NCBI RefSeq assembly: GCF_004010195.1
Contig: NC_057718.1
Coordinates: 62,892,225-62,956,224 of the forward strand
Direction: 5' to 3'
From: Chiloscyllium plagiosum
Lineage: Eukaryota
DNA length: 64,000 nt
Part shown: positions 5,843 through 63,670 of the stretch, piece after piece
Numbering within the stretch: position 1 is the stretch's first letter
Layout: each line of letters begins with the position of its first letter
Program-made: the position numbers and the translations under genes
Notes under the pieces: model-generated
Seen by the model: the letters and a program-made list of their open reading frames with translations, nothing else
Told to the model about the DNA's origin: nothing
The model's database searches: none

Positions 5843-5968
5843 CTGTTCATCTGAGATGCTTTGAAAGGCCTGTAGCATGTTTGGACATGTAGGAAGAAGC
5901 ATTAGCAATTCCCAAACACGTCTGGACAGATTTTCAGCATGAAGGTGCAATTCTTCGCAATGTGCAGT
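5843..5968 (-). CDS. USP34: USP34 exon (126 nt, phase 0->0)
   Basis: TAHCEELHLHAENLSRRVWELLMLLPTCPNMLQAFQSISDEQ; cag|ACT, CAG|gtgag. Confidence 0.95.
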
Positions 5969-8900
5969 CTGCATGCAACATCAGGAAATAAAAATATCTT
6001 GTTAACTCAAATTATTAATCCCAAAACTGTTCAGTGATGAAATAAATAGAGGGAATCTAAACCCTTAAGTTTATTTTTAAACTAAAAACTTTTGAAACCA
6101 AACGTTTCTTCAATTCTATAAATATTTCTGAAATGTATGCATGGTGTGGGAGAATATATGGATCAATCTTTCACTTAAAATGCTGAACCTTTAATAAATC
6201 TTTTTTTTTAAAAAAGCTTCATGCATCCTTAGGATCACCATATTCATTCATTATGGTCAGAATTGTGCTAACAAAGCAAAATGCAAATACTTATAGTAGA
6301 TGCTTAAATAGTTAATATGAAGGCAAAGATCATATGCCTAACTAACCAAACATAACACTTCATATAAAAAGCCCAAAGAACTGCAGATGCTGCAAATCAG
6401 AAACAAAAATAAAAGTTGCTAGAAAAGCTCAGCAGGTTTGGCAGCATCCAGAAAGAGAAATCAGAGCTAACATTTTGGGTCTGGTGACCCTTCCTCAGGA
6501 AGGGTCTTCTAAGGAAGGGGCACAGGACTGCAAACGTTGACTCTGATTTCATGACACTTTATGCTCAGTTTTCTAACTTTAACACAACAAAATATTCTGC
6601 GAAGCTACCTTAAATTACAATTGGCACTCAATAACATAGGTGTAACATAGCCTTTACTTTCTTGTCTTTTAAACTATTTCTACAGTGTAGGAAACTTAAA
6701 TTGAAATTATTCCTTATACTTTTCCTCGACATACTTAAGTTATGTGATGGGTCGGCACCCTTGATCCAGACTTTATGGCATGAATTAAATACAAAGATCA
6801 AAACCTAACTTGTGCTACATGTAAAGACTATACTTTTTTTATTTTTCTGTATTTTTGAATATGAACTGAAACTGGAAAAGTATTGTATTCAAAACCAATC
6901 ATGTGAAAGGAATTGCTGTGAAAACAGGGTTACTGAAACTAGCTGTATTTGGTGTCTAGCCTGGTGCTTTATTTAAGCAGTGGGGGAGAATTCTTTGCTG
7001 AGGAGTTGGCACCATCACAAAATGACAAGGGGAGATTTGGGTGTATATAGTGAAATCCACATGGTAAGAAACAGCTAATTGATTTGTGGACTTGTAACAA
7101 ACTGGATGGAAAAAACCACCTGCCCACAGAGTATGTGGTTGGCTCCTGGGTAGCTGAATAGCTTATGGACTATATTGATAGAAGCCTTTTGACCACCAGA
7201 AGGAGACGTGGTGTGTCTCTGCAATAGAATATATCTGAAATTTGAAGAAAACCAGTGTATTGTCCCTCACTAGATGCTGTAAACTGCTGTTTTAACTAAT
7301 AAAGCAAAAACTTTATAAATCAATTGTTCTGTGCTTCCTGCAAAAAACAAAAAGTGAGCAGACAACCAAAAACAACAAGCCCAAGCAAGCAAAAGAGAAC
7401 ATCTCAACAAACTCTGTGGGTAGGACAACTGTCTTCTCAGTTTTCCTCCATTCATAACATCAGTGATTTTCTTGTCTGCATCTACCTATGTGTTTAGGAG
7501 GAGTTCTATAAGGGAGTTAGCATTTTAACTAGAGTTATAGGTCAACAGTTTACAGATTCTAGCTACAAGTAAGCAACGATTCATTTGGAATAAACAGTAA
7601 TTTTATTTTTCTAAGTACAAAAACCTGATCCTGGTTTCCTGTTTGCCTAGCCAAAACAAACAGGCAAACAGAGGAACTTTTGTGTATTTTGATAAAATGT
7701 TTACGTTTTGTGACAAGACCAGGAACGTTTGATTTCCAGCGCACCACCCAAGTGAGGCATGATACATGAATAAAAGTGTACTCCAAATTAAAAAAACCCT
7801 TTAATTATAGCATATAACATGGGATTTCTGCCTCACTCCACTAAATAAATTCCTTTTATATTATTTTTAAATAGCTTCAGAGAATAAAGAGACTCTTCGA
7901 ACATCTAAAATGTGACAGGACTATTGGTTGAAAGAGTTTTTTTTCAGACTTACACAATTTAATATACATTAAATCATTCGAATTTGAGTTCATTCACAGA
8001 ACTTAAATCTCTCAACAGAACTAAACTGAATAGCTAATGTGGCAATAAAGGGCTCAAATTTCTGAAATTAAATCAGTCACGGTTAGATACGACAGTGCAA
8101 ACTATTCATTAGAATACCAAAGTACTTGTCTAGTTGGGATCCAATAACCAACTGACCACTTGACTAATTCTAGAATGGGTCAGCAGATGGAATTGAGTGC
8201 AAGTGTGTGGTTAGGGTAGTGTTGTGGGATTGCTGCCTGACAAACCACACCTCCAAGAAGGCTAGTTGGTATATTAATGGAATCTGTCTTTTGACATTAG
8301 CCATCTAATGATAGGTTCTGATTACACATGATTTGTTTTTAAAAATGTGCATTATAGAGCAGAAGTTGAAAAAACTTCTTAAATTCTACTATATATAACA
8401 GATCTTTCTTCTCTTTTCTATATAACTAATTTTTATTTTTATGGATTTGTTAGGTTTTCATCATTCTTTATTTCAATTTACTTTCAGAGATTCCTCTACT
8501 ACTACAACACATGCTCTGACGTCAGCAAACTCAGCCAATTATTAACTTTAATTATGTTAGTGGATTTAACCTACTTTCCAAACTGAATTGCGGTCCAAAG
8601 TAAAAGGCAAGAGCCTTCACAAAAGTAGCTTATGTATAAGGAGACGCTCTCTCTGGACCAATCCCTAATGCAGTCGAGAATAAGTGCTAGCTGGTCCTAT
8701 TGCTTCCTCCAGAGTGTTCTCTACCCAAATGGAAGTCCAACTTATGTAAAAGATGGTTGAGAAAAGAATTACAAAATTGGTACTAGGGATGAAGAACTTC
8801 AGTTGTTTAATATGCAGTTCTTTTAGATATTTTTTCGTTGACCTGAAACTGATATATAAATGCAAGGTTTACTTTTTCTTCCATATCATCTTCCACAACT

Positions 8901-11900
8901 TCAACATTAACTTCAGCTATTCCCCTTGGAGAAAAGAAGATTCAGAGGAGATTTGAAAAAAGTATTGAAAACCATGAGGGAACTGGAGAGAATGGATTGG
9001 AAAAACTGTTCTCAATGGTGGAAAGAACAAGAACAACAGGGCACAGATTTAAGATAACTGGCAGCAGAAGTCAATGACAAGAAGAAGAAAAGCCTTTTTC
9101 ATTCAGCAAGTGGTTTGGATCCAAAAAGCACTGCCCGAAAGTATGGTGGAGACAGTCAACTGAGGCTATCGTTAGCTGAAAAAGAAAATTTTGGAAAATG
9201 GATGGTAATGGTTCTAAGTGAAACACTCAATCTGAACCCAGTCCAAACACAACTGGTATATAGCTTCCTTTGTTTATGCAACCATTCTACGATTCTAGGG
9301 GGGGAAAAAAAATTGGCATTGGACTCAAAATGATGACCCAAGAATTAAGAGACCCAATATAGGGGGTCATTATGGCACAGTGGTTGTGTCCCTATCCCTG
9401 AAACAGAAGACCCAGGTTCAAGTGTCATAATATCCCTGAACAGGTCAATAACAAAATATTCAGGACCCCCAATATCTACCTTCAAAAGGTAACTTATATT
9501 TAGAAATTCCCTGCATAAATACTTCACATATTGAACATATCTTAAAGAAACAGATCATGAAAGAAGCTTTGACACTACATTATTGAACAGAAATTGTTTA
9601 ATGCATTACTGATGTTGCAAAATGAAATTGCAGCTCAACTGTCTTGAATTGCGACCTGACACTCCTATTCATCAGTGGACATCCAAACTGACAAAGGAAT
9701 CTGGGATTCTACTCAAAATCAAATAGAAAAACAACTTTAAATAGATTATTTGAGAAAACGTCTTAGTGAGATCACCTTCCGTTTTTGTACTTTATGATAC
9801 AAACATGAGGTTTAAATCATGAACCTAAACAATCTATGCACTCAAAAGACTTTACCTCACTATCTTCCATGACTTGATCTACAGAAGGTGGTTTGAATGA
9901 TGCCAGCATTTCAAGCAAATCAAACAAAGTAGTAAGATGCGGTTCTTGAAGGAGCAAAAGCATTGGAATATTTTCCTTTTGGGGAGGAGGTAGACAAGAT
10001 GCAGGCAACTGAATACCATCTCCCTTGCGTTCTCTACGTGGGGCTCCCAGTGATACAAATACCATCTGTAAAAATGCACATTTGAGTTATCCATTGTTGA
10101 ACACATTAGTTGAAAAATATATATCATTGAATCAAAGCACACATTCCCTCCTCCATTACCTCCCGACAGGATTTTGGGGAATCATATTTTCAAGTTTGGT
10201 GGAAACGATGGTCTAGTGGAATCTTAACCAACAGACCAAGGTTTGAATCCTGCCACAGCAGATGGTGGAATTTGAATGTAATAAAAATCTGGAATTAAGA
10301 GTGTAATGACGACATTGAAACCATTGTCAATTGTTGGAAAAACTCATTAGGTTCACGGTTTCCTTTAGGGAAGGAAATGGCATCCTTACCAGGTCTGGCC
10401 TACATGTGACTCCTGACCCACAGCAATGCGGTTGACTCGTAACTGCCCTCTGGGCAATTAGGGATGGGCAATAAATGCTGACCTAGCCAGTGACACCAAA
10501 TCCCATGAATGAATAAAAAGAAATTGTACATTTATGTCTTACATTTTAATAGTACAATATAGCCATAACCTTACAATTGGGGAAACTCCCCCACCTTGCC
10601 CAACTGCATTTTAAGCACCTGCATATCTTTAAATCCAAGTTCATGGAGTGTTTTCTCATCATAATCGGTGGTAAGTTCATGACCTGAGGAAATCATTCGA
10701 ACAGGTCCCATAAGACCTCCTAAAACAAAAGCACAGAAAATTCAAAGTCTACTATTTTGATATCCTTGCATAGATACAGCTAAATTAAAACTGCTTGAAA
10801 CAATTTTAAAATTCCATTTCGTGAAGCCATTATTGACATATTATATTCTACTCTTCACATTTATTTTTCTAACCAGAACAAACGTATTCATGTTCACAGA
10901 GGTATAGTTGAAAGGTAGAACTCATACAGACAATACTTTTTGTCTGCAAATGAGAAATCTTGATTTACAGGAGATGTTTAAAATGCAGTAATGCTTTCAG
11001 TCACTTAGGGAACCCCAAGCATTAACAAAATGCAATTGCAACTCAACTGCATTGAATTGCGACCTAATATTGCTATTCATCAGTGGACATCCAAACTGGC
11101 AAAAGATACTTGGGGTTCTACTTAGAAAATCAAATGCAAAAACAGTTTTATATAGGTTATTTGAGAAAATGTCTTAGTTGGATCACCTTCCACTTTTGTG
11201 CTTCTATGATCCAAAATGAGGTTTAAATCATGAACCAAAACTGTTTATACATTCAAAGACTTCACCTCACTATCTTCCATTGCTTAATCTACAGGTGGTT
11301 TGAATGATGCCACCACTTCTAGCAAGTCGAATATGCTAGTATGTAGTGGTTCTTGAAGGAGCAAATTGTATATCTCCAAACCCAAAATGCAAGCAATGTT
11401 AACTGAAACTACACATAAAACATGTATACCATTTGTAAACCCATGCATTCAATGGCAACAAAACAACAGGCAGAAAAACTAACACCTGAAATTACAACTC
11501 AGCTGATGAAAATTGACACTTATGCTCAAATCAGGGCACAGTAGCGCCATGGCAGGCAAACTGCCGAAGGTGATCAGGGAAAGCCAAGAGGGCAGAGGGG
11601 AGTTGGAGCCCACAGAAAAATATAAGAGATAAAGCTACTGGAACAGAACTGGAGGCCAGAGGAAGTGGTCATATTAGCACTCTAAGCCTGATCAGCATTA
11701 TGAAACAAAAATTTTTAAAAAATATATTAAAGTAAATAATTATATATAAATTATTTACTGGCTTACCAGGAAAATCTCCTTGTCGACTGCTTTGGCCAAA
11801 TTCTTGGAGTTGAGCTTGCTGACTCATTTGTTCTTTCTGTAAATTCTCATACCAGTGGGTAACTTCAGCCCGTAAGTCTGCAACTTGGTCACTGGGATAC

Positions 11901-14900
11901 ATTTCAATGGTCATCTAACAGAGATGATTTTTTTTTTAAAAAACATGATTTGCAATATTTATTTCTGCAGCAACCAGCACTGCATATTTTTCCATAAATT
12001 AAACATTTTACATATTAAATAACATTAGGATACTGTAAATGGGGGGAGGAAGAAATCAATTTCAGTTGCACAGCCTTTTTAATTCAGACCACTTCAACAT
12101 AATATATGTTCAAAGAAGAATTAAAATATAATTGAAGTCAGGGATCATGGCCAAAAGGTGTTCTGTTAAAACTAGATTTAAACAATACTTGTACAGTCAT
12201 CAATAAGAAACCAATAAAGTGAAATTAAAGTGATACTTAAATTAGAAGTCGTTAACACGACTATGACTTAGACGATGGCCCTTTTATGCTGTTGATATTC
12301 CAAACAATAATAAACACTGAATTCAGTGTTGCAATTTTCTGACATTGCGTGAAAATTCAACACAAAAATTGCAAATATATGCTACACAGGATAGGTTGAT
12401 AATATGAATAGGAAGGGTTTGGAGGGATATGGGCCGGGTGCTGGCAGGTGGGACTAGATTGGGTTGGGATATCTGGTCGGCATGGACGGGTTGGACCGAA
12501 GGGTCTGTTTCCATGCTGTACATCTCTATGACTCTACGACTGCTGATGACTCAATTATTACTATCCCTGTCAAATGCTGTCATTGTCTATTAAGATAGCA
12601 ATGTTGAATTATTCGCTGCTCAATCAAGAAAATTAAACTATCCGGAGTAAAAACTTAGTATCATTACTGACAATGCACCATGTCAGAACCAATATCTTCC
12701 CTGTTCCGTCAAATGTACACTAACCTGGACTAAAGTTAACACATTTCAATTATGAAATCATGATGTATTCAATACAATGGTTTTGAAGGATGACCAAACA
12801 TCATTCAAAAAGGTATTACCATGCAGATTACTAGAAAAAAATTGAAACACTGTTACAAATAATTCTCTGTTTTGGTCAACAAATGGAAATATGTTAATTT
12901 CACAAATCCAAACAAACTAGATTGTGTAAATAAATGTCCAGAGAAATAAAAAAAGGAAAGTTTTAAGCATGGAGACCAAACAATCCAAACACTGAGTGCA
13001 CAATGCAGCACTGAATTCAATGTGAGGGCTTTAATGAAATGAACGCATGATGTCTAATGATCACATGACCAGAGTAGACAGGAAGGGACATTGATACATG
13101 ATTGCATTTCAATCCAAACATCACCCTTTTTAAATACATGCATTACCATAACATTTTGAATTACCCAAGTTAACATATATATGCATGACTGTTCTCATAA
13201 CTGAACAGATCATTATTCCCATCAGACAATGCATCTGCATTGCTTACAGTCTTTATATCATGCTGATCTTTTAATGACACATATGCATGCTATCACTGAC
13301 TGTTCCGGAGTGTTCTTCCCCCAGGGAATGACATTTCTGCATAATTTGGATAATTTATAGTTGTGGTGGTACATGTTGTCATAGAGTCATATAAGGAGGA
13401 GAACGTGAGGGCTGCAGATGCTGGAGATCAGAGCTGAAAATGTGTTGGTGGAAAAGCGCAGCAGGTCAGGCAGCATCCAAGGAACAGGAGAATCGACGTT
13501 TCGGGCATAAGCCCTTTCCTGAAGAAGGGTTTATGCCCGAAACGTCGATTCTCCTGTTCCTTGGATGCTGCCTGACCTGCTGCGCTTTTCCAGGATAGAG
13601 TCATATAATCCTACAGCATGGAGACAGGCTTTTAGGCCCAAACTGGTCCATGCCGACCAACATGTCTATCCACCCTAACCCCATTTCCCCTGTACATTCA
13701 ATCCTTTTTTATCCAAATATTAGTCACAGGCCTCCAATCTGACAAGCATCCTTCTACTTTACCCTACGTTTCTTACCATCAAGCCAATTTTGTATCTAAT
13801 TTGCCAGCTCGCCCTGAATTCCATGAGATCTAACCTTACCGAGCAGCCTACCATGTGGAACCTTATCAAAGACCTCACTGAAATCCATATAGATTGCGTT
13901 TAACCATCTGCCCTCATCAACCTTCCTGGTCATTTCAAAGAACAAACAAATTTGTGAGGCACAAAGCCATGCTGACTACTCCTAATCAAACCCTGTCATT
14001 CTAAATGCATGTATATTTTATCCCTCAGCATCTTCTCAAGTAACTTACCCACCACAGAGGTTAGGCTTACCAGTCTATTGTTCCCAGGCTTTTCTTTGCA
14101 GCCCTTCTTGAATAATGGCACAAGATTCACTACTCTCCAGTCTTCCGGGACCAACCTGTAGCTAACGATGATGCAAAAATATCAGCCAGGGCCCCCACTA
14201 TTTCTTCTCTACCCTCTTGCAATGTTCTTAGATATATCTGGTCAGGACCAGGAGATCTACCCACTTTCATACAATTCTAATAAATTCAAAACCTCCTCTA
14301 CTGTGATATGGACTGTCCCTAAGATATCACCACTAACTTCCCCAAGTCTTTACATCTTTCTCCATGGTAAACATAGAGGAGAAATATTTACTGAGAACCT
14401 CGCCCATCTCCTGCGATTCTACACATACATGTACACTTTGGTCCATCATGGACACTACTCTCTCTCGCTCGTTATTCTTCATCCTTTAGTATACTTAAAG
14501 AACCTCTTTGGATTCACCATAATCTTCTCAGCCAAGGCTGTCTTGTGCCTCCTTTTCGCCCTCCTGATTTCCATCTTCAGTAAACTCCTGTATTCCCTGG
14601 AGGTCTCCAGGGACTCCATTGATCCCAGTTACCTGTACCAGAGCTGCACCTCCTCCTTTTTTCTGATCAAAGCCTCAATATCTCTTGTCATCCAGGGTTC
14701 CCTATTCCTATCAACTTTGCCCTTCACCCTCACAGGAACATACAAACCTTGAACTCTTGCTATCTCACTTTTAAAGACCTTCCACTTGCCAGAGGTCCCT
14801 TTGCCTGCAAACAAACTACTCCAATCAACCCGTGCAAGCTCCTGTCTAATCCCATCAAAATTCGCCTTGGCCCAAATTAGAACTTGAACTTGTGGGCCGG

Positions 14901-53900: not shown

Positions 53901-56900
53901 GTCCAGAACTAGAGGGCATAGGTTTAGGGTGAGAGGGGAAGATATAATAGGAACCCAAAGGGCAACGTTTCCACACAGAGGGTGGTGTGAGTATGGAATG
54001 AGCTGCCAGAGGAAGTGGTGGAGACTGGTACAATTACAACATTTAAAACACTTCTGGATATGTATATTAATAGGAAGGGTTTAGAGGGACATGGGCCATG
54101 TGCTGGCAAATGAGACTAGATTAGATTAGGATATCTGGTCAGAGACAAACAAACTGCAGATGCAGGAATCCAAAGTAAACAGGAGTGTTACACCTGAAAT
54201 ATCGACTTCTCTACCTTAGGATATCTGGTTGGCATGGATGAGTCGGTCCGAAAGATCTGTTTCCGTGCTGTACATCTCTATGACTATGACGATCAAAAGT
54301 GGAGTCTTCTCAAACATTTAAACTACTGTGCCCAACATTGTGAAAAAAGAAAATGTCTGTTGTTTCTAATTGCATACACTAAACTGATATAGAAAGAGAT
54401 CAGTTTTGTAACTGATTGTAGTCAGGCTTAGGCTTGAAATTTAGCATTAAATCTGGTTATTCAGTTACCCCTTCATAGCTGGGATGCATATCTGCATCAG
54501 GAAAATACATCTTCTTTTGATATATTTCATTCCAAAGGCTTGCTAGCAAGGACAAATTAACATGAGGCTTGGAGGCAAACATATCGATTGTAACGAAGAC
54601 AGAAATATTCAAGCCAGTAGTGTTGTGTATAAAGAACCAGGATGAGAATGTTAATGTGGGGCCCCAAGTAACTCTTAGACTCTGGGTAAGCACTAGACAC
54701 ACTGCTCTATGATGGCAATTGGATAAAACAGGAAAATAATCAATTTGAAAAATAAAATAATCATTCTCAGCTTTAAGAATAGTTCTACAACAACTCTTTT
54801 ACAATTAGGACTTAAGAATTATGGTCCACCCCTTCAACCAAAGTTAAAGATCACACAACATCAGGTTATTGTCCAACAGGTTTATTTGGAAGCACTAGCT
54901 CCTTCATTAGATGGTTGCAGAGAATCAGCTCTCCAAAAGCTAGTGCTTCCAAATACGCCTGTTGGACTATAAACTGGCGTTGTGATTTTTAAACTTTGAC
55001 CACCCCAGTCCAACACCGGCATCTCTAAGTCATTCAACCAAAGTATGTGACAACCTACTCTGCCTCAGAATTGTCCTCCTGCAAGAACATGACAACGTCT
55101 GGATGGACACAGCAAAATGAAGACAACACATTAGTGGAAACAAGAACATTATTTTGTACAAAACATGTTCTGGGAACTTAGAACTGCAGTTTAAGTATAC
55201 TGCAGAAATATGCAAAATAAATAAGTTCAGCTCTTCAAATGTCCTGATATTCTTCACAATGAATTAAAGAGTTAGAGCAGGTAAATGCAGCAGGCATTTG
55301 GTGCACAAGACCAACAAAACAGACAAGAAAAATGACATTAGTTGACGCAAGGAAAAATGTTGGCCACAACACCAGGAAAACTCAAAATACTTTTTCTTCC
55401 TCCAAATAATATCATTTCCATCCAAGTGAGCAAGGGCGGCCTCAATTTAACATGTCATTAACTGGGAAAGTCGGGGATAGCATCAAATTGAAAAAAACAT
55501 ACAATGTAGTAAAGGTTAGTTGCAAACCAAAGGTTGGGAAAGCTTTGTAAACCAAAAGAAAACACAAAAACAATACAGGGATACAGAATTGGCTGGCCCA
55601 TAGAAGACAGAGTGGTAGTGAGTTTTGAGAAGATTTGTAGCTCAGGTTGAGGTTCTGTATGTAAGTTTGCTTGCTGAGCTGAAAAGTCAATTTTCAGACG
55701 TTTCATCACCATACTAGGTAAAATCATCAGTAAGCCTCTGGTGGAGCACTGGTGTTATTAACTTAGATACAGACGAGGAAGGATACCACTTGGACTGGGA
55801 CAACACATCCAACCTAGGGCAAGCCAAACAGGGACACTCATGAGAATTCCTGGAAACATGGCATTCCAACCGGAACTCTAACAATAAATACATCAACTTG
55901 GACCCCATCTACCACCCTCTGAGAAAAAAAAAAAGGGATTGACATCACAAACCCAAGGAAACCTAAACACAAAGAGAAAGCGGGTCACTAACACCAGTGC
56001 TTCACCAGAGGCTCACTGATGTTACCTAGAAACATCTGAAAATGAACTTTCCAGCTCAGCGAGCAAACAGAGGGCGGTAGTAGATGGAAAGTATTCAGCC
56101 TGGAGCTTGGTAACAAGTGGCGTTTCACAAGGATCTATTCTGGGACCTCTGCACTTTGTGATTTTTATAATTGATTTGGCTGAGGAACTGGAACAGTGCG
56201 TTAGTAAGTTTGCCAATGACACAAAGATTGGTGGAGTTGTGGACAGTGTGGACAGCTGTTGTAGGTTGCAATGAGACATTGACATAATGCAGAGGAGTGA
56301 CAAATGGAGTTCAACAAATATTTAACATTTAATTCAGAGATCAGTACTTTATTTGTTGCAGCATGACAAAGTATGGATAACTTCAATTTTTTACTCTATT
56401 AGGAAGATCTGATAGTCGCAACACCTGCGTATATGAGCGTAGTTTATTCACAATATAAAATCCTCAGGAGATGTATGCCAAGTACATTAGGTTATCTGGC
56501 AGTGGATTTTGAGGGATACAGCAGTTCCCGCAAAGGAGACATGAACTTAAAATGATATATTCAATTATAGATTGATTTAAAAGTCAGGAATGAGAATTCT
56601 TACAAATTAAAGTTTGATACATTAGATTAATAAATGCATAAATTATACAGTCCAAATCCTAAAGCCACGAACCAAAGTCACCTTTTCTAATTCAGATTGG
56701 TGTATTACTAAAATATAACATTCAACGAGAGGCATCTCAAATCATTCATTAGATTTCATGTTTCATTATTTCTGCATCAAAATGTACACCTGTTTATATT
56801 AGCATCAACCATTCCAAGATTAAAATAAAATGAAGTAGAGCAAACTTACCTATCATGATGGTGGTGGTGGTGGTGGTGGTGATGGTGGTGGTGATGGTGA

Positions 56901-59900
56901 TGTTGATGCTGCTGACCAATAAAACGTCTGCAGTTAAATATTTCGTTTCCAATTGCCTCTCCTAAAAAATCTCCTGTTTGTGTGATACATGAGTCCTGAG
57001 GACCTTGTGATATGTGTGCAGTATTTATTTCCCCTGACATATCATGTTCAGAGTCTTCAGGATGCGTGCAAGTATCCAGCAGTCGAATTCGATTTTCCCC
57101 TGATGATACTGCATTAGTGCTGTACGAAATATCCCTGCCTGATCCACTGTTATGCCTGTCACGTTCTATTCCACTGGGTGATTCTGGCATACAAATTCCT
57201 GGCTGGGACTCTGCACTCAAAGTTCGCAATTCAGGATTCCTGCTCTCATTCTGCATACTTTGTTCACCCTCTTCTTCATCATCATCTTCCTCTTCTTTGA
57301 GAGCTTCACTATCTGCCATGTCTTCTGAGTGGACTTCACTTCCTGGACTTCCAGCCGACTGGCTGGCATGACTTGAATTTACTTCATTACTGGAGCCTTC
57401 ACTGTGTCCACTGCTACTGCCAGGCCCACTACTGGCATCTTCACCACTATTAGCAGTCTCATCAGAACTTCCTTGCATAGACTCCTAAAAATAATCCATT
57501 TATTTTTGATTAATCAATTCTGTTAATTTTAGGAAATGCTCCAGATGATATTGCAACAACAAATATAGCAATATTATGGATTAACAACCACTGTTCAAAA
57601 CTTGCCATCTTAGTTTGCCATCCAAAGCATAACATTGAGCTTAGAGCCCAAACACAATATAACTGTCTATTCAGCATGCCACCAATCAAAGCATAATACC
57701 ACAGCTAAGCCTTACAATAAACTTTTTTTGCCTAATTAATTTACCTTCTCTTTATCAATGAATTTACTGCATCTTAATTTCTTACCTCTGTATCTGACAA
57801 TCGCTGTTGTGCACGCTTTGCCCTGTTGATCATTTGTTCATCCATTTCAATGTCACTGCCTCCACTATGATGTGCATCACTGTTATCACTGCTTTGTGGA
57901 CTAGCTGCAGGCGATCCTAAGTTAAATATTTTTGTAATTTTAGTTAAATTAGAAGCAGTTAACAAATACTCAGAAGAGTCTCAGCATATAGATCTTTTCA
58001 TAAAAATTAACATTAGTTTCCCTTCGTACACAACCATTCTATCCTGATCTCAGATTCTTTTTCATCAGTCCAAATGAGCTGGAAATGACTAAACATGTAT
58101 TAAAAATAACCTTACAAACATTTAAATAAGGAAAGTGCCACAGAATGACAATAAATATAAGACAACAGTTTTTTTTGTAAATCACAATCAATAATTGCAT
58201 AAAGCAGAATCACAATCTTAAAATATTATCAATGCATTTGCGATAGATTTTGATTTCATTAATGTTTCAATGTGATCTCTTAGGTGCAGCAAGAACATGG
58301 CAAATTAGTTGAAGAAACAAAAAAGGTCATTATTTTCAACAAGAATTACTCCAACCTGTCAATTTTCCAAGTACCATAATAAGTAAAATAACAATTAAAA
58401 AATAAAGGGATTCTATGGAATTTGTTGGGTAGTCATAAGATCACTATCTAAAAAAAGGAAGTTTTGTACAGTCAATATTTGGATGCAGGACAATTTTATT
58501 TCATGAGGTTGGATATTTGTTGTTTTAAAAAGTAAGAGAACAAATAAATGCTACAATAAAGTAAAAACAGAAAATAATGGGGAAACTCTGCAGATTCGGT
58601 AGCATTTCCAGGGATAGAAAGAGTTAAGATTTGAGTCCAAAACTACTACTTCAGATCAGAAGGGTGCTAGAAAAGTTGTTTTAAAACAACATAAAATAAA
58701 AGGGGATGGAAAGGAGGAGGGGAAGGAGAAGCAACTGATGGCAAAGGGTGCCCAAAGCAAAAAAGACAAAAGGGCGTGCTCGTGGTAATACAACAGATGT
58801 GTAGATGAAGAGTTAATGCTAAGTGCAAATGGCAGAAAACCAGTCAGATCTGACAGCAAACCTATGTAAACAAGCCATTGGAAGATGGGGATCGGCGGGT
58901 CCTCAAGTGGAAGCCAGAGCTTATAATTTTATGTTGTTGAGCATAATGTTGAGCCCTGAGGGCTGTAAAATGCCTCAGTTGAAAATAAGGCACTATTCCT
59001 CCAGCTTACAAAGGGCTTTGCTGGAATACCTCAGCAAGCCTAGGATAAAAATGTTAACAAGACAGTAAGAAAAAGTGTATTGGATGGCAAGGGACTGGAA
59101 TGTTCAGGTAATGCTTGCAGACACAGCAGAGTGTTCTATAAATTAGTCACCTATCTCCGTTTGGTGAGACCAAAGAAGATTCTACTGTGACTGAAAGACA
59201 TACAAATAAATTGCTGCTTCTTTAATAAAATTTGGAGTTTTGGAAAGTGAGGAGGGAGGAGTTAAAATAGCAGTGGTCAGCAGCAGAGCTAACCTATTTT
59301 GTTATTTCCACCTACCCTTCATTTATATTTCTTTTCTACTACAATTAGAGCACTCTTTTTGTGTTACGTACCCACCATTTAAATCTAATTTCTCCTCCTT
59401 TGTTTTCCAACCACTTTTGCAACTCCCTTCAGTTCTAAAGTCATATTAGAATCTGAACATTAACTCGTGTTTCTCACCACTGATGCTACCAGATATGCGG
59501 AGTTTCTCTAGAATTTGTTCCAAATCTCCAGCATCTGCAGTACTTTGATTTTTTTGTATAATAGAATACTTGGTTTTCCATTTATAATACACTGCTCCAG
59601 CAAGAAGAAACATTTCATTAATATAAAAGTTGACTTGTTAATTTTACCAACGTTAAAAACAGATTTTAAATTTAATGCATAATTCACAAGATATTTGTGC
59701 ATACAAGAGGTGTCTTCCAATGCAAGATAGGACGGTTCAAATAATATTTGTTTAAATCAGAGCACAAATGTTAATATACTAAGAACTGTTATGCTGGCAG
59801 ATAAATTTGAAGAAAAAGCATCTTTTACACCATTTAACAATTTCTAATAGAATCTTAATTTCTGAAAACTGGCAAGAGTATCTAGTGTTTTGCTGCCAGC

Positions 59901-60811
59901 GATAATGTCCCTACTTCTGGTCCAGAAGGTCCAGGTTCAAGTCCCACCTGCTGCTGAGGGGTGTCATAACTTTTAAAAAGGATCTATTTCCACTCTGTGT
60001 GTATTAGTTTGCAAAAAAAAAATAGTAATCTGTACACAATGCACCAAATATAGTGAAAACATCTGAAGATTAACTGATTTCTGCTCCTTCCTTTGCTAAA
60101 CGGACATTTACCTGATTGGCAACAAGGGGTGGATAGGAAAATGAAGTTGAGGCAGAAGATCAGCAATGATCATACTGAATTGGGCAGCAGCTCAAGGAGT
60201 TGAATAATCTATTTCTGTTCCTAGATCTTAAAATGTTTAGACGAGATTAGATTACTCACAGTGTGGAAACAGGCCCTTCGGCCCACAAGTCCACACCGAC
60301 CCTCCGAACAGCAACCCGCCTAGACCCATTCCCCTACATTTACCCCTTCACCTAACACTACGGGCAATTTAGCATGGCCAATTCACCTAACCTGCACATT
60401 TTTGGACTGTGGGAGGAAACCAGAGCACCCGGAGGAAACCCACGCACACACAGGGAGAATGTGCAAACTCCACATAAACAGTTGCCTGAGGCAGGAATTG
60501 AACCCAGGTCTCTGGCGCTGAGAGGCAGCAGTGATGACCACTGTGCCACCGTGCCGCCAATGTTGTACAATCTCATTTTCATACTAATTAGTAAAATAAA
60601 TACAAGCTTATAAAGTTACATTTTATATATGTAAGCACTTAAAATAATAAAATGCATCCATTCTCCAAACACCGAACTTACCTTTCTTATTTCCCATTGG
60701 GAGGTTTGTATTAAGAAGAGAAGCAAAGGAACTCTGCTTGGACAGTTGAGCTTTAGCAGCAAGTGCATTATTCCAGAGAGCTTTAATAAGCATTGATGCC
60801 AAGTACAAGGT
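5843..60811 (-). CDS. USP34: Ubiquitin carboxyl-terminal hydrolase 34, internal portion (18 exons, 955 aa, upstream of the catalytic USP domain); gene continues beyond both window ends
   Basis: Spliced translation runs TLYLASMLIKALWNNALAAK...HAENLSRRVWELLMLLPTCPNMLQAFQSISDEQ and matches recalled vertebrate USP34 colinearly. Every exon has an AG acceptor and a GT donor (one GC), with compatible phases. Confidence 0.97.
6366..6550. mobile_element. Older fold-back PLE-derived insertion with degenerate HHR cores
   Basis: ctgcagatgctg tail on the left; imperfect inverted arms gaaatcagagctaacatttt / aaacgttgactctgatttc; decayed CTGAGGAagggtcacc...GAAA; imperfect TSD cat(a/g)acactt. Confidence 0.7.
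6820..7765. repeat. Possible solo LTR or unclassified interspersed repeat
   Basis: Begins TGTA and ends ...CA with an internal AATAAA; no convincing TSD, boundaries uncertain. Confidence 0.3.
9856..10065 (-). CDS. USP34: USP34 exon (210 nt, phase 0->0)
   Basis: MVFVSLGAPRRERKGDGIQLPASCLPPPQKENIPMLLLLQEPHLTTLFDLLEMLASFKPPSVDQVMEDSE; cag|ATG, GAG|gtaaa. Confidence 0.96.
10205..10520 (+). mobile_element. tRNA-derived SINE with Meta-like central core
   Basis: A/B-box-like tggtctagtgg and ggtttgaatcc; core ggttcac..cctttagggaaggaaa..ccttaccaggtctggcctaca; 3' tail gggcaattagggatgggcaataaatgctg. Confidence 0.75.
10619..10719 (-). CDS. USP34: USP34 exon (101 nt, phase 1->0)
   Basis: (G)GLMGPVRMISSGHELTTDYDEKTLHELGFKDMQ; tag|GA, CAG|gtgct. 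Confidence 0.95.
11026..11365 (-). pseudogene. Diverged duplicate of 9618-9958 (3' half of a USP34 exon, its donor and flanking intron)
   Basis: Colinear similarity over ~340 bp. Translates LLLQEPLHTSIFDLLEVVASFKPPVD*AMEDSE|gtgaag, with an in-frame TAA at 11284-11286. Confidence 0.9.
11767..11914 (-). CDS. USP34: USP34 exon (148 nt, phase 0->1)
   Basis: MTIEMYPSDQVADLRAEVTHWYENLQKEQMSQQAQLQEFGQSSRQGDFP; tag|ATG, G|gtaag. Confidence 0.96.
12400..12540 (+). mobile_element. CR1 3' UTR fragment (5'-truncated)
   Basis: Closely similar to 5212-5337 and 29050-29184; ends ctctatgactcta. Confidence 0.9.
13395..13594. mobile_element. Fold-back PLE-derived element (family A), 14-bp TSD
   Basis: TSD atagagtcatataa at 13381-13394 and 13595-13608; inverted arms 13449-13516 / 13525-13592. 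Confidence 0.9.
13516..13550 (+). ncRNA. Minimal type I hammerhead ribozyme motif
   Basis: CTGAAGA-a-gggt ttat gccc-GAAA-CGTC; helix I pairing is weak. Confidence 0.65.
17765..17800 (-). ncRNA. Minimal type I hammerhead ribozyme motif (mirror copy, sense to USP34 pre-mRNA)
   Basis: attc-CTGAAGA-a-gagc ttac gccc-GAAA-CGTC^gatt; one helix II mismatch. Confidence 0.65.
17809..17844 (+). ncRNA. Minimal type I hammerhead ribozyme motif
   Basis: attc-CTGAAGA-a-gggc ttat gccc-GAAA-CGTC^gatt; all core nucleotides are present. Confidence 0.75.
20070..20465 (-). mobile_element. CR1 RT fragment
   Basis: Reverse complement resembles 4130-4500 (DFSKAFD...WRPVT...ADTKIG region). Confidence 0.85.
20878..21067. 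mobile_element. Fold-back PLE-derived element (family A variant), 9-bp TSD
   Basis: TSD cacagtaat at 20869-20877 and 21068-21076; ggagaaagtgaggactgcagatgctg tail; decayed HHR on the minus strand. Confidence 0.85.
21981..22107 (-). CDS. USP34: USP34 exon (127 nt, phase 2->0)
   Basis: FAYHLRQWQIEGTGISSHLKALSDKQSLPLRIVCQPAGLPDK; tag|A, AAG|gtaat. Confidence 0.96.
22935..23246 (-). mobile_element. HE1-like V-SINE
   Basis: tRNA-like head gggcggcatggtggctcagtagttagcactgctgcctcacagc..ggttcaattcc; V core gtttgcacattctccctgtgtctg; (ctaat)n tail. Confidence 0.9.
23383..23542 (-). CDS. USP34: USP34 exon (160 nt, phase 1->2)
   Basis: KTGLEKEQEFISKCMESLMMASENLDKEPQSSLTIIERGLLMLKTHLEAFRR; cag|GT, AG|gtaaa. 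Confidence 0.95.
25330..26970 (-). mobile_element. Ancient Penelope-like ORF relic (RT plus GIY-YIG C-terminus), heavily decayed
   Basis: MGSP motif near 26440-26456; FVDICFIESAAALNNFLIHLNVLHP (YVDD...LN.LHP-like); DSLIEQHLVNTPTCTK..TNQF (PLE endonuclease end). Confidence 0.7.
28251..28350 (-). CDS. USP34: USP34 exon (100 nt, phase 0->1) with non-canonical GC donor
   Basis: LCGMDQLWGIALRAQTADVSRAAIQYINSYYIN; cag|CTT. Donor G|gcaagt is required to restore ...YYING-KTGLEK. Confidence 0.92.
28468..30180 (-). mobile_element. Older CR1 3' half, interrupted by an opposite-strand younger CR1
   Basis: Minus-strand ORFs 29235-29498, 29744-29932 (FVDDTKIGG) and 29917-30117 (YLDFSEAFD); 3' UTR at 28468-28640. 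Confidence 0.9.
28641..29184 (+). mobile_element. Young 5'-truncated CR1 nested in the older CR1
   Basis: ORF 28644-28910 EYCMQFWSP...LERVQKRFTRML; intact 3' UTR. Confidence 0.92.
32362..33019. mobile_element. Fold-back PLE fragment (family D) with GIY-YIG C-terminal remnant on both arms; 15-bp TSD
   Basis: TSD ttga(c/t)cacagtctgt at 32347-32361 and 33020-33034; centre at 32671/32672; DWDNTSILSQAKQ; decayed CTGAAGAtgttacctagtatggtgac(g)aaacgtc on both arms. Confidence 0.9.
34533..34646 (-). CDS. USP34: USP34 exon (114 nt, phase 0->0)
   Basis: MPQLKPETISMTGLNLFQHLCNLARLATSAYDGGSSSE; cag|ATG, GAG|gtaag. Confidence 0.95.
35078..35232 (-). CDS. USP34: USP34 exon (155 nt, phase 1->0)
   Basis: LSLDQVDILWHCLVEDPECYDDALHWFLNQVRSKDQHAMGMETYKHLFLEK; tag|GG, AAG|gttag. 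Confidence 0.96.
36860..37140 (+). repeat. Old PLE-like terminal fragment, related to 27660-27815 and, inverted, to ~24690-24800
   Basis: Shared tggtgcattctccat and ttcttg(t/c)(g/a)att motifs among these loci. Confidence 0.45.
37198..37280 (-). CDS. USP34: USP34 exon (83 nt, phase 2->1)
   Basis: YSHGAEVQVRLQFLTCVFSTLGSPDHF; cag|G, A|gtaag. Confidence 0.95.
39566..39661 (-). CDS. USP34: USP34 exon (96 nt, phase 2->2)
   Basis: WAEKELSMMKLFFDNLIHYIQAVREGVHKHL; tag|G, TT|gtaag. Confidence 0.94.
41312..41401 (-). CDS. USP34: USP34 exon (90 nt, phase 2->2)
   Basis: SVVVSLRLLPKLFGTFQQFGSSYDTHWIT; tag|A, AT|gtaag. Confidence 0.95.
41585..42073. mobile_element. Fold-back PLE fragment (family C), 13-bp TSD
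   Basis: TSD acctagttttaat at 41572-41584 and 42074-42086; ~200-bp inverted arms; KHIDLDPIYR (PLE ORF end); CTGAGGAtgtcacctagacaggggac.. HHR-like core on both arms. Confidence 0.92.
42199..42326 (-). CDS. USP34: USP34 exon (128 nt, phase 0->2)
   Basis: VHLSEGLINEAEKLLCSLVCWFTDRQIRMRFIEGCLENLAND; tag|GTT, AG|gtaag. Confidence 0.95.
42405..42520 (-). CDS. USP34: USP34 exon (116 nt, phase 1->0)
   Basis: (A)PSVHKHQYNSNAVTDINLDNVCKKGNTLLWDLVQDEDA; cag|CT, GCG|gtatg. Confidence 0.95.
43250..46590 (+). mobile_element. Old, highly degenerate CR1-group LINE containing a younger nested CR1
   Basis: Residual motifs gataaatcccctg, ttggattttcataaggccttc, gctgacgac, MQLYKAFVKP; boundaries approximate. 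Confidence 0.7.
45166..46195 (+). mobile_element. 5'-truncated CR1 (RT end plus 3' UTR), nested
   Basis: [23 protein letters not shown]; 3' UTR ends ctctgactct. Confidence 0.9.
46905..47119 (-). CDS. USP34: USP34 exon (215 nt, phase 2->1)
   Basis: HLGDDMMSADDVSCSSSQVSAKSEKNMADFDGEESGCEEELVQINSHAELTSHLQQHLPNLASIYHEHLSQ; cag|G, G|gtagg. Confidence 0.96.
47755..48050 (+). mobile_element. Old Deu-domain (SacSINE1-like) SINE
   Basis: tcagaaggtt..aaaatctaggc..tgctgcac..ctttcaga and 3' acattggctttaaagc resemble the recalled DeuSINE consensus. Confidence 0.55.
48379..48596. mobile_element. Fold-back PLE-derived element (family B), ~12-bp TSD
   Basis: TSD tacaaatac(c/t)ta at 48367-48378 and 48593-48604; arms ~48409-48497 / 48510-48596; each HHR core has one point lesion. 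Confidence 0.9.
48600..50140 (+). mobile_element. Old non-LTR retrotransposon 3' part (CR1/L2 group)
   Basis: IYKVQIQNVMPY..TTFKKLDTIQD (post-RT region); 3' tail resembles the tail of the SINE at 10205-10520. Confidence 0.7.
48919..49075. mobile_element. Fold-back PLE-derived element (family A variant) nested in the old LINE
   Basis: gagagtgtggtgctgg / ccagcaccacactctc inverted arms; gcccatta repeated on both flanks; decayed HHR. Confidence 0.8.
52415..52698 (-). mobile_element. Diverged HE1-like V-SINE
   Basis: Similar to 22935-23246 (ggcaatttagcatg, cacatctttggactgtg, gctgtgagacagcaatgctaacc). Confidence 0.8.
52795..53035. repeat. Pyrimidine-rich low-complexity tract
   Basis: CT/CCC-rich sequence. 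Confidence 0.7.
53892..54290 (+). mobile_element. CR1 3' fragment with a 76-bp nested insert
   Basis: ESRTRGHRFRVRGE; 3' UTR ends ctctatgactatgac. Confidence 0.9.
54845..55032. mobile_element. Fold-back PLE-derived element (family B), 12-bp TSD
   Basis: TSD ttcaaccaaagt at 54833-54844 and 55033-55044; inverted arms; HHR cores partly deleted. Confidence 0.88.
55620..56065. mobile_element. Asymmetric fold-back PLE fragment (family D) nested in a CR1 fragment (~55520-56320)
   Basis: LDWDNTSNLGQAKQGHS*EFLETWHSNRNSNNKYINLDPIY; inverted termini; acagag..ggtagt duplicated at the flanks. Confidence 0.85.
55694..55733 (-). ncRNA. Minimal hammerhead ribozyme motif
   Basis: tta-CTGATGA-tt-ttacc tagtat ggtga-t-GAAA-CGTC^tga. 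Confidence 0.55.
56850..57484 (-). CDS. USP34: USP34 large Ser/acidic exon with poly-His (635 nt, phase 0->2)
   Basis: ESMQGSSDETANSGED...FNCRRFIGQQHQ(H)16D; ttag|GAG, AG|gtaag. Confidence 0.96.
57786..57916 (-). CDS. USP34: USP34 exon (131 nt, phase 1->0)
   Basis: (G)SPAASPQSSDNSDAHHSGGSDIEMDEQMINRAKRAQQRLSDTE; ttag|GA, GAG|gtaag. Confidence 0.95.
58562..59555. mobile_element. Old, larger fold-back PLE relic
   Basis: Minus strand ~58940-59055 reads ILGLLRYSSKALCKLEE*CLIFN*GILQPSGLN (PLE GIY-YIG end, cf. KLEEQHLIFRLGTLQP.GLN); the right end is the ctccagcatctgcagtactttg tail. Confidence 0.65.
60244..60558 (-). mobile_element. HE1-like V-SINE
   Basis: Head ggcggcacggtggcacagtgg..gggttcaattcc; V core; ctaat tail. 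Confidence 0.9.
60682..60811 (-). CDS. USP34: USP34 exon (130 nt, phase 0->1)
   Basis: TLYLASMLIKALWNNALAAKAQLSKQSSFASLLNTNLPMGNKK; cag|ACC acceptor, G|gtaag donor. Confidence 0.95.
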
Positions 60812-61081
60812 CTGTGAACAAGGCCAAAAGTGGGGTTTTGAGTAAATGTTTTTACTTATATACTTCAATGGAAGCTGTAGATAATGCATTAAGATAATAA
60901 ATCAGCCCAACGGACCACAATTGTGCATCAGCTCTTAATTAAACAAAAAAATAAATTTTGTGTATAATTAAATGATATTGAAATCTAAAAGAATATGACC
61001 ATCTAGATACAAATATTTGATTTAAGAGGATTAAAACAAATGGATAATTCATAATTAGGATAACTGATATACTTCACACGA

Positions 61082-62035: not shown

Positions 62036-63163
62036 ATTACTTTCAAATTACTGTTTTGATTTACTTAGACATTCCATGTCAAATTGGCATTAAGACAATT
62101 GAATAGTTAAAATGAATTCTGTTTAATTTGCTGAATTCAACACCATTGTATAACTACAAAAATATACATAAATTAATTTTAAAAAGATGGAGGTGACAAT
62201 TAAGTTAGGATAAATTGAGAACACTAAATGAGTGTATTTAGCCTTTTTCTTTGCCAATTTTTGAAATGCATAAGCTGCAAGTCATTACCATAGACACAGA
62301 TGTACAAGTAAACTTTGAAGTCTCAAAAATCCTCTAAAGTCAGGGGTCGACTTAGATTTAGAGGATTAAAAACTGAACCCTCAGTGCAACTGTTACATGT
62401 GGTCACGTCTTAAAATTTCGCATGCCTTCACAAGAGGCTCCATAGCATCAATTTGACGTTTTGCACCCAGTTATAGCATTTACTGTGGGTGAAAAATTGT
62501 GGATGACTACTAATATGAATATAGCATGCCATGGCTGTAAAGGGGATCAATTATATATACAATATATGCAAAAACATGACTTTGAGGCTGAAGAAATGGG
62601 GCACCTTATATAATGTCTTGACTGATATGCTGCAATGCATTGTTGGATTATGGGACTGAAAACCACAAAGCTAAGTCAACTTGCTGTGGCAACACTTACT
62701 GACAGCCCAGTGTCTGCATCATCAATGATGAATGGGTTTGAGACAGTGCTGCAGCAGTGACAAAGTCTGCAGCAAAGAGAACAAAGAAACATTGGTTTCT
62801 CATGTGTATCATGCAGCAACTGGGAAATTGTAGTTAAGGCATCACCTTTACTTTCATGGGTAGAATGGGATACGTATTTGGTACCATTATCAAAACGGAT
62901 GTACATACCATCAGCCACTGGTTAAATTATTGTTGGATTAATAAGAAATTTAATGGGAGGACTTCAACTATGTTTTTACACCTTCCCCAAATAAAGCTTC
63001 TGCAATCAAGCTATTATAGCCGGATTTGAAATGGGACTTCATCTGCATTTTTAAAAGTTGCATTAATCAAGGATTGCATGAAAATCTTTTTAAGGCATGA
63101 ACAGCAGCTCTCATGTCCTCTCAGTACTGAGACAAGGAAATAAAACACTACATAACCATTCAA

Positions 63164-63670
63164 CCTTAAAAGTCACATAACACCAGAGTATAGTCCATTA
63201 GGTGGGTGGTTGATGAAGGAGCAGCACACCGAAACCTAGTGCTTCCAAATAAACCTAAAAATCACACAATTGTAAGACACAGAATTTATGGCAAAAGTTT
63301 ACAGTGTGATGTAAATGAAAGTATAAATTGAAAAATACCTTGATTGTCTGTTGACAAGAGACAATCAAGGTATTTTTCAATGTATAATTTCAGTTACATC
63401 ACACTGTAAACTTTTGCTATAAATTCTGTGCCTTACAATTGTGTCCTCCATAACCATCTGATGAAGGAGTGGCGCTCCGAAAGCTAGTGTGCTTCCAATT
63501 AAACCTGTTGGACTATAACCTGGTGTTGTGTGATTTTTAACTTTGTATGCCCCAGTCCAACACTGGCATCTCCAAATCATGTCAAATAAACCTGTTGGAC
63601 TATAACCTGGTGTTAAGTGATTTTTAATTTTGTACACCCCAGTCCAACATCGGCATTCCAAAATCATGAC
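63164..63670. mobile_element. Composite fold-back plus tandem PLE element (family B)
   Basis: Inverted arms ~63265-63349 / 63359-63443; duplicated 3' tail 63497-63580 and 63584-63668; imperfect TSD taacca(t/a)tcaa at 63153-63163 and 63671-63681. Confidence 0.85.
63455..63489 (+). ncRNA. Minimal type I hammerhead ribozyme motif
   Basis: cat-CTGATGA-a-ggagt ggc gctcc-GAAA-GCTA^gtg; core intact, helices I and II can pair. Confidence 0.75.

What the first reader, a model, noticed from the sequence alone, without database searches (positions are those of the whole stretch)
6366..63670. Multi-family system of fold-back Penelope-derived mini-elements with hammerhead ribozymes on both strands
Seen: about 11 insertions (6366, 13395, 17673, 20878, 32362, 41585, 48379, 48919, 54845, 55620, 63164, plus an older one at 58562) from several sequence families share one architecture. 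Two inverted copies of the element 3' end are joined head-to-head with tails outward, usually flanked by an 8-15 bp TSD, and the arms carry intact or decayed CTGANGA-stem-GAAA cores. Known: PLEs carry minimal type I HHRs in their terminal repeats and can leave inverted structures. Inference: fold-back is the default integration product here rather than an exception. Transcripts would be rod-like hairpins with ambisense ribozymes, formally resembling viroid-like or retrozyme RNAs. I cannot tell whether this has been described in sharks.
Basis: partly seen in the sequence, partly recalled or inferred. Interest (0 to 1): 0.8.

Follow-up and report, generated by a model that had tools for sequence, protein, structure and literature searches.

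The report
Mirror-image Penelope retrotransposon stubs in shark
Twelve short mirror-image insertions in a shark gene have the long-described shape of broken-off Penelope-type jumping genes rather than of a viroid-like RNA, and because a short tail sits on only one arm of each, they were likely made by copying the element's RNA from both cut DNA strands at once.

Summary
Twelve head-to-head insertions lie in or beside USP34 introns; 8 of the 11 named ones have exact 8-15 bp TSDs, and no solo copy of these families was found in the window. Families C and D match the C-terminus of Penelope-like RT/GIY-YIG proteins; A and B are assigned by ribozyme, tail and TSD only. The shape is the published 'typical Penelope structure' (inverted pLTR, one-sided tail, TSD), and opposite-strand minimal hammerheads 100-700 bp apart were reported in 2014. 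The viroid/retrozyme reading is not supported: only 4 hammerheads are intact, no locus has two, folding buries most of them in the hairpin, centres differ between loci, and there is no editing scar in the DNA. In all 11 two-arm loci only one arm has the tail, and in 5-6 each arm holds sequence the other lacks. This favours two separate primings, one per cut strand, from the two RT start sites known in vitro (inferred, about 55%). The genome-wide fold-back share was not measured (no genome held). This scan has noted the same structure before (294 findings, at least 26 genomes).

The parts
6364..6548 (.). Fold-back, old family-A relative; tailed arm 6364-6505 (-), short arm 6506-6548 (+); both hammerheads decayed; TSD decayed
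13395..13594 (.). Fold-back, family A; tailed arm 13395-13516 (-), tail-less arm 13517-13594 (+); arms 99% alike; 14-bp TSD (13381-13394 / 13595-13608)
13519..13546 (+). Intact minimal type I hammerhead motif
17673..17901 (.). Fold-back, family A; perfect centre at 17804/17805; arms 97% alike; 15-bp TSD with 4-nt overlap at the tail-less end; minus-strand core at 17796 intact but its stem II broken
17813..17840 (+). Intact minimal type I hammerhead motif
20878..21064 (.). Fold-back, family A; tailed arm (-) with decayed hammerhead, 46-nt tail-less arm (+) without one; 9-bp exact TSD (12 bp with 1 mismatch)
32362..33019 (.). Fold-back, family C; arms 310 and 348 nt, 88% alike, perfect centre at 32671/32672; both arms carry the endonuclease C-terminal coding remnant; hammerheads decayed; 10-bp exact TSD (15 bp with 1 mismatch)
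41585..42073 (.). Fold-back, family D; arms 96% alike; short tandem duplication at the centre; hammerheads decayed; 13-bp TSD
48376..48592 (.). Fold-back, family B; one core change in each arm's hammerhead; 9-bp TSD with 4-nt overlap at the tail-less end
48917..49075 (.). Fold-back, family A, older; 30-nt tail-less arm (-), tailed arm (+); 8-bp TSD
54845..55032 (.). Fold-back, family B; hammerheads partly deleted; 12-bp TSD with 6-nt overlap at the tail-less end
55620..56066 (.). Fold-back, family C, inside a CR1 fragment; tailed arm 138 nt (-), tail-less arm 309 nt (+) reaching 231 nt further 5' into the endonuclease C-terminal remnant; TSD decayed
55697..55730 (-). Minimal hammerhead with intact core, stem II closing pair lost
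58561..59555 (.). Old fold-back related to family A; tail-less arm 724 nt (-), tailed arm 271 nt (+), 74% alike over 225 aligned bases
63164..63670 (.). Compound family-B insertion: pieces on -, +, -, +, + strands, the third with an internal gap, the last an 87-nt tandem copy of the tailed end; 11-bp TSD with 1 mismatch
63458..63486 (+). Intact minimal type I hammerhead motif, the only one not opposed by a complementary arm
5846..60817 (-). Host gene USP34: 18 exon-like matches; 11 of the 12 insertions lie between them, none overlaps one; 63164 lies beyond the last match in the window

Best explanation
These are twelve dead, 5'-truncated mirror-image insertions of Penelope-like retrotransposons (shown by protein match for two families, likely for the other two), and each was likely built at its landing site when both strands of a staggered cut primed reverse transcription of the element's RNA, one from the outer and one from the inner start site, after which the two short copies were likely joined head to head. 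Shown: arms, TSDs, one-sided tail, locus-specific centres, family-wide second 3' end. Known from one in vitro study: a Poseidon protein nicks and extends both strands, starts at two sites that bound the tail, and uses uncut RNA. Inferred: both primings in one event, and joining by short matches or end-joining. The ribozyme is a passenger from the pLTR; in read-through RNA it is predicted to be zipped into the hairpin.
For: Tail on exactly one arm in 11 of 11 two-arm loci, overhang 31-45 nt in 9 of them, 54 and 93 nt in two. The tail-less end is a fixed site family-wide: loose ends pile at 17711/17715/17716 (390+526+231 contigs in run X1, 350+443+217 in X3, 387+481+237 in X12 of a related species) and at 42033/42034 (94+80 contigs). 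The tail-less arm reaches further 5' than the tailed arm in 5 clear loci (13395, 41585, 48379, 55620 by 231 nt, 58562 by 433 nt) and 1 uncertain (54845); tailed arm longer in 3, equal in 2, so in about half the loci neither arm can be a copy of the other. At the tail-less end the TSD's priming end matches the element for 4, 4 and 6 nt at 3 of 9 assessable loci (p about 1e-5) and 4 of 5 nt at a fourth; 0-2 nt at the other 5. No arm start falls on the ribozyme cut; 12 of 14 arms in the 7 short A/B loci start between -12 and +6 of the core. No one-strand G.U excess in any of 12 loci (43 against 45). PMC11167929: both strands cleaved and extended, two RT start sites bound the tail, dimer predicted, ribozyme cleavage not needed.
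Against: Asymmetric centres could come from later deletions in a once symmetric hairpin, and PMC8557442 ascribes the one-sided tail to endonuclease resolution; together these let self-priming explain the same data. PMC11167929 found initiation at RNA not homologous to the cut DNA, which sits badly with the 4-6 nt overlaps read as primer annealing. 63164 has five pieces, so two primings alone do not explain it. Families A and B have no protein match. Twelve loci from one window; the genome-wide share is unmeasured.
Confidence: 0.57

Rival explanations
1. Self-priming: one cDNA (or an antisense RNA, as Arkhipova et al. 2013 proposed) folds back at a short palindrome and copies itself; the tail is then trimmed from one arm when the intermediate is resolved, and centres erode later. 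Still an ordinary Penelope insertion product made at integration.
For: Perfect or near-perfect palindromic centres at 17804/5, 32671/2 and 63354; PMC3846280 reads junction palindromes as self-priming; PMC8557442 proposes endonuclease resolution for the tail; arms of one locus are mostly closer to each other than to other copies.
Against: Needs a later one-sided loss in 5-6 of 11 loci, including 13395 whose arms are 99% alike, while perfect centres survived in arms only 88% alike; the two fixed 3' ends match two RT start sites shown in vitro.
Confidence: 0.28
2. The short A/B fold-backs are non-autonomous palindromic units that are themselves transcribed and re-inserted, possibly through hairpin or circular RNA.
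For: The centres of 17673 and 20878 could be the same point within one base, followed by a deletion; arm starts cluster just 5' of the ribozyme; joints of a tailed end to a tail-less end on the opposite strand occur in 17+20, 14+19 and 6+8 contigs of three DNA runs and once in family D, as a circle or concatemer of the unit would give; family RNA is present in a poly(A) run (2,847 reads).
Against: All 12 inserts differ in length and centre; head-to-head joints listed stand in 1-2 contigs each (15 of 36 joints shown); no tandem array of the unit; no locus has two intact ribozymes and stem II is predicted buried; no editing scar in DNA; no pile-up of read ends (a weak test in a 3'-biased library).
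Confidence: 0.07
3. Two independent insertions in opposite orientation into one spot, or rearrangement after insertion, made the pairs.
For: PMC11167929 says the enzyme can nick its own pLTR; 63164 is compound.
Against: One TSD pair encloses both arms at 8-9 loci with none at the centre; always head to head, always one tail; arms of a locus are similarly aged.
Confidence: 0.05
4. Assembly artefact (fold-back chimeras of reads).
For: Palindromes are hard to assemble (PMC8557442); the window has a 500-N gap between inverted CR1 copies.
Against: Arms differ by 1-26% and carry TSDs; 87% of sampled words of 54700-64000 stand in independent runs (the best may be the source sample).
Confidence: 0.01

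Closest known systems
Endonuclease-positive Penelope-like insertion unit with inverted pLTR, one-sided tail and TSD (Adineta Pen2a_Av, PMC3846280, passages read; PMC8557442 Fig. 2 legend)
   Same: Head-to-head inverted 5'-truncated copy, 31-40 bp tail on one end, 8-10 bp TSD, palindromes at the junction, described as the typical and most frequent arrangement.
   Different: Here both arms are stubs of 30-724 nt with no ORF or direct pLTR between them, TSDs reach 15 bp, and all 12 loci in the window have the form. I found no count for sharks in 9 searches.
Minimal type I hammerheads of metazoan PLEs (PMC4209133, parts 1-2 of 4 read)
   Same: Core boxes, bulged base before stem II, short stem I, palindromic stem III; that paper already reports pairs about 100-700 bp apart on opposite strands; monomers did not cleave.
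   Different: That paper says most motifs in Schistosoma are single; here every locus is an inverted pair, though only 7 of 12 keep the motif region on both arms.
Poseidon of Anolis (PAc) in vitro (PMC11167929, parts 1-2 of 4 and passages)
   Same: Two RT start sites bound the tail; ribozyme about 110-125 nt from the tail end; uncut RNA is the template; both strands extended.
   Different: The paper does not explain the inverted structure (its only 'inverted' is a blocking base) and reports no primer-template homology.
Non-LTR retrozymes (PMC7229834 abstract; bioRxiv 10.64898/2026.07.22.740005 part 1 of 5 and passages, supplements not seen)
   Same: Small, non-coding, type I hammerhead, PLE-derived; reported in one chondrichthyan.
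   Different: Retrozymes are head-to-tail tandem repeats with a ribozyme in each unit and give circular RNA; these loci are head-to-head with one or no intact ribozyme.
L1 twin priming (recalled, not read; search gave no paper linking it to Penelope)
   Same: Both strands of the cut prime on the RNA, short match at the second primer, one TSD around an inversion.
   Different: In L1 the second priming is far upstream, giving an inversion without a long inverted repeat; here the two starts are 30-45 nt apart, giving a hairpin.
ADAR editing of palindromic repeats (PMC5625713, passages)
   Same: Self-folding repeats are edited; Penelope is named as massively edited in lizard.
   Different: Here only a suggestive strand-biased signal in family A RNA.

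Membership tests
EN+ Penelope-like elements | Single ORF with PLE RT and C-terminal GIY-YIG endonuclease | tested here: met
   For families C/D only: arms match the C-terminus of P0011 (RT + GIY-YIG, weak Pfam hits; 53-73% identity) and of full-length ORFs such as P0049 and P0136. Of 12 long hits scanned, 6 have RVT_1 and 4 have GIY-YIG.
EN+ Penelope-like elements | Protein evidence for families A and B | tested here: inconclusive
   B arms gave no protein match (Poseidon-type queries only). The long 58562 arm has a decayed reading that resembles a Neptune-type endonuclease end from recall, but Pfam and BLASTP to P0049 found nothing.
EN+ Penelope-like elements | Minimal type I hammerhead in the pLTR | tested here: met
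   4 intact, 0 in 20 shuffles; homologous decayed copies in the alignments of all four families.
EN+ Penelope-like elements | 30-40 bp tail at one end only | tested here: met
   11 of 11 two-arm loci; fixed tail-less ends family-wide.
EN+ Penelope-like elements | 5' truncation, inverted copy, TSD | tested here: met
EN+ Penelope-like elements | Full-length partial-tandem master copy with direct pLTRs | not testable with these tools
   No genome held; only an 87-nt tandem end at 63496-63669.
Penelope/Poseidon clade | No Zn-finger-like linker between RT and EN (present in Neptune and Nematis) | tested here: inconclusive
   By eye P0011 and P0049 lack such a linker; no tree was built.
Non-LTR retrozyme | Head-to-tail tandem units each with a complete hammerhead | tested here: not met
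Non-LTR retrozyme | Abundant unit-length linear and circular RNA | not testable with these tools
   Only a poly(A) single-cell run gave reads.
Viroid-like ambisense RNA (definition recalled) | A foldable ribozyme in each polarity | tested here: not met
   No locus has two intact motifs; stem II probability <=0.06 in 4 of 5 whole-insert folds.
Viroid-like ambisense RNA (definition recalled) | Circular RNA replicating without a DNA stage | not testable with these tools
   All copies seen are genomic with TSDs; no circular-RNA data.

The most novel reading that the evidence does not exclude
A share of the short fold-backs is not a dead end: the palindromic unit is circularised or concatemerised (tailed end joined to tail-less end) and re-inserted, so sharks carry a hairpin-shaped, hammerhead-bearing passenger element that spreads as a unit, its RNA edited by ADAR. 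The recurrent tail-to-tail-less joints and the near-shared centre of 17673 and 20878 would be its traces.
Probability: 0.07. Interest if true: 0.75.

Novelty: new member of a known kind. Interest (0 to 1): 0.3.

Why it matters
How Penelope-like elements make their inverted structures is called undefined in the literature read (PMC8557442). Shark genomes hold these stubs in very large numbers (family A lay on 44,502-66,020 contigs per run), each a record of one integration, so counting tails, arm lengths and end matches would test two-strand priming against self-priming without an experiment. They also seed host introns with ready-made hairpins (7% of this window's bases lie in the 12 inserts), likely ADAR substrates. 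The structure itself would not surprise a Penelope specialist.

Tried and rejected
Whole-genome counts: no genome held. Rfam: no hammerhead model hit at E<=1, only hairpin-driven miRNA matches below gathering scores. Pfam on the 56-residue and 78-residue arm readings: nothing; BLASTP of the 78-residue reading to P0049: nothing; the Atlas look-up for that reading could not be run, so family A's protein link stays open. First homolog search returned only a shark EYA3 gene model ending in a PLE fragment. Editing in family D: not specific; A>G/T>C share of changed places equal in RNA and DNA (p=1.0), and run X22 laid 0 reads. In family A the same test gave p=0.05. DNA editing scar: none in 12 of 12 loci. 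Arm starts at the ribozyme cut: none of 14 short arms. Read-end pile-ups: none, weak test. No RNA holder on record was listed for 54700-64000, so locus-level expression was not tested. Contig depth was not used as a copy number. Assembly artefact and double insertion rejected on TSDs and arm divergence.
Full report
Observation. Self-comparison of the window finds inverted arm pairs at all 11 named places. The older locus at 58562 is a twelfth, with arms of 724 and 271 nt. All are head to head with the 3' ends outward. An exact direct repeat of 8-15 bp flanks 8 of the 11 named loci, against 14 of 300 random intervals searched the same way (p=2e-8). 63164 has 11 bp with one mismatch, 6366 and 55620 only decayed candidates, 58562 none above chance. 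The arms fall into four families (A with older relatives, B, C, D; C and D are about 61-70% alike). Profile searches place every hit with E<0.05 inside these 12 loci, so no solo copy was found; the reversed window gave no hits. The profiles came from these loci, so a family that exists only as solos would be missed.

Setting. The 212-residue ORF at 56846-57484 is a USP34 exon. Eighteen exon-like matches run on the minus strand from 5846 to 60817; 11 of 12 inserts lie between them and none overlaps one. The nearest named proteins to the arms come from carpet sharks. No genome is held for the window.

Identity. Arms of families C and D encode the decayed C-terminus of a Penelope-like ORF. They match P0011, a shark protein with RT and GIY-YIG remnants, and a 53-residue stretch of a close relative finds 243 proteins, of which I scanned 12 long ones: 6 carry RVT_1, 4 GIY-YIG, and P0049 and P0136 look full-length. 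Families A and B have no protein match. Their assignment rests on ribozyme, tail, TSD and shared architecture, plus a recalled resemblance of the 58562 arm to a Neptune-type endonuclease end.

Ribozymes. A stem-aware descriptor finds four intact minimal type I hammerheads (13519+, 17813+, 63458+, 55730- with a damaged stem II) and none in 20 shuffles. Each has the palindromic four-base stem III that PMC4209133 describes for dimer-dependent motifs; there a monomer showed no cleavage. Rfam has no matching model at E<=1. The motif region is on both strands at 7 of 12 loci, but no locus has two intact copies; 17673 comes closest, with an intact minus-strand core and a broken stem II. In a head-to-head insert either strand's transcript reads the antisense arm first and the sense arm second. 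Folding whole inserts drops stem II pairing to <=0.06 in 4 of 5 cases, from 0.8-1.0 for most pairs in three of those arms folded alone; only 63458, which has no opposing arm, keeps it (0.9). Rod-like folding is real (z from -2.9 to -56 for 11 inserts folded) but follows trivially from the inverted repeat. The 'ambisense ribozyme' is therefore a formal likeness only.

Anatomy that bears on mechanism. (1) In 11 of 11 two-arm loci only one arm carries the outer tail; 63164 also has a tail-less left and a tailed right end. (2) The tail-less end is a fixed site across the genome. For family A, contigs leave the element into unrelated flanks at 17711-17716 (1,147, 1,010 and 1,105 contigs at the three best-supported places in three runs; 697 further rows not shown). 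For family D they do so at 42033/42034 (174 contigs), where the 41585 left arm ends, and RNA depth falls from 259 to 145 across that point. (3) At the centre the tail-less arm is the longer one in 5 clear loci and 1 uncertain, the tailed arm in 3, and they are equal in 2. So in about half the loci each arm has sequence the other lacks. (4) At the tail-less end the TSD matches the element for 4, 4 and 6 nt in 3 of 9 assessable loci and 4 of 5 nt in a fourth; the other five show 0-2 nt (6366, 58562 and 63164 left out for unclear TSD ends). (5) Twelve of 14 arms in the seven short A/B loci start within -12 to +6 of the ribozyme core and none at its cut site (read), so the template was uncut RNA, and a fixed 5' end or RT stop lies there (inference). 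(6) Centres differ among the 12 loci; three are short palindromes. 17673 and 20878 may share a centre within one base. Head-to-head joints listed stand in 1-2 contigs each (15 of 36 joints shown), but perfect hairpin centres are likely collapsed in such contigs, so recurrence of symmetric centres is untested. (7) Arm mismatches show no one-strand G.U excess (43 against 45; none of 12 loci significant), so no locus looks like a retro-copied, edited hairpin.

Mechanism. PMC11167929 shows that an Anolis Poseidon protein cleaves and extends both target strands, starts reverse transcription at two sites that bound the tail, is predicted to be a dimer, and does not need ribozyme cleavage. It does not address inverted copies. 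Put with points 1-5, the simplest model is that both 3' ends of one staggered cut prime, one at each start site; the two cDNAs stop independently and are joined head to head; fill-in gives the TSD. I put this at 0.57. Self-priming with later trimming, the published reading (PMC3846280; PMC8557442), gets 0.28 because deletions at palindrome centres could mimic point 3. The five-piece 63164 needs extra template jumps under either model.

RNA. Family A reads are abundant in a poly(A) single-cell run of the same species label (2,847 reads in 1.9 Gb). Of the 40 of 122 difference rows shown, 6 of 7 T>C rows lean to one read orientation and 6 of 7 A>G rows to the other (p=0.002), the pattern A-to-I editing would give. 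Two of them fall on ribozyme core adenosines (17773, 17774: 10-11% in one orientation, about 1.5% in the other, <=0.2% in DNA contigs). Against: three non-editing changes are also orientation-biased, the DNA runs are other individuals, and family D showed no specific excess. This is suggestive of hairpins in cells, not proof, and editing of Penelope repeats is already reported in lizard (PMC5625713).

Unexplained. Joints of a tailed end to a tail-less end on the opposite strand recur in family A (37, 33 and 14 contigs in X1, X3, X12) and once in D. They are a few percent of the tail-less ends listed. They fit multi-piece insertions like 63164, insertion into the element's own end, or circles or concatemers of the unit. 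This is the main thread left for the novel case.

Comparison and verdict. PMC3846280 calls inverted pLTR, one-sided 31-bp tail and 8-10 bp TSD the typical Penelope structure and head-to-head the most frequent form. PMC4209133 reports minimal hammerhead pairs 100-700 bp apart on opposite strands. PMC8969392 lists inverted pLTRs as a curation note. Retrozymes are head-to-tail with a ribozyme per unit, which these loci are not. Nine searches gave no shark count and no two-strand priming model, but the library lacks most subscription papers, including the 2005 and 2006 Penelope reviews cited by the papers read, and I saw no supplements. The scan's own notes hold 294 similar findings in at least 26 genomes; several reach the same two-priming reading, which I had noted before looking, and which is not independent support. 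Verdict: real, ordinary in kind, useful as a large natural data set on an open mechanistic question. Interest 0.3.

Noticed in passing
window 1-1123 (-) and 2212-3346 (+), N gap 1712-2211: Two CR1 5' regions (esterase ORF1 and endonuclease) head to head, about 88% alike, around a 500-N gap; either two copies or a scaffold join problem.
   Followed up: partly
window 28478-30172: Three CR1 3' fragments abut in -, +, - order with a head-to-head joint at 28641/28642; their different divergence suggests separate insertions.
   Followed up: partly
window 56846-57484 (-): USP34 exon with a run of about 14 histidine codons, longer than in the sturgeon and bird proteins fetched.
   Followed up: no
P0001 residues 550-610; also P0048, P0056, P0151: Host gene models (EYA3 in a bamboo shark; unnamed proteins with LRR, nucleoside transporter or BIR domains) contain the same Penelope endonuclease-end fragment: exonisation or annotation error.
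   Followed up: no
family A laid on window 17673-17804; family D on 41831-42135: Recurrent tail-to-tail joints between a tailed end and a tail-less end.
   Followed up: partly
window 41786-41830: A tandem duplication of about 36 nt at the centre of the 41585 fold-back, next to a 5-nt overlap between the arms; looks like RT slippage.
   Followed up: partly
window 17773-17774: Possible A-to-I editing of hammerhead core adenosines in family A RNA.
   Followed up: partly
window 55620-56066: The insert sits inside a CR1 fragment, which dates it after that CR1 copy.
   Followed up: no
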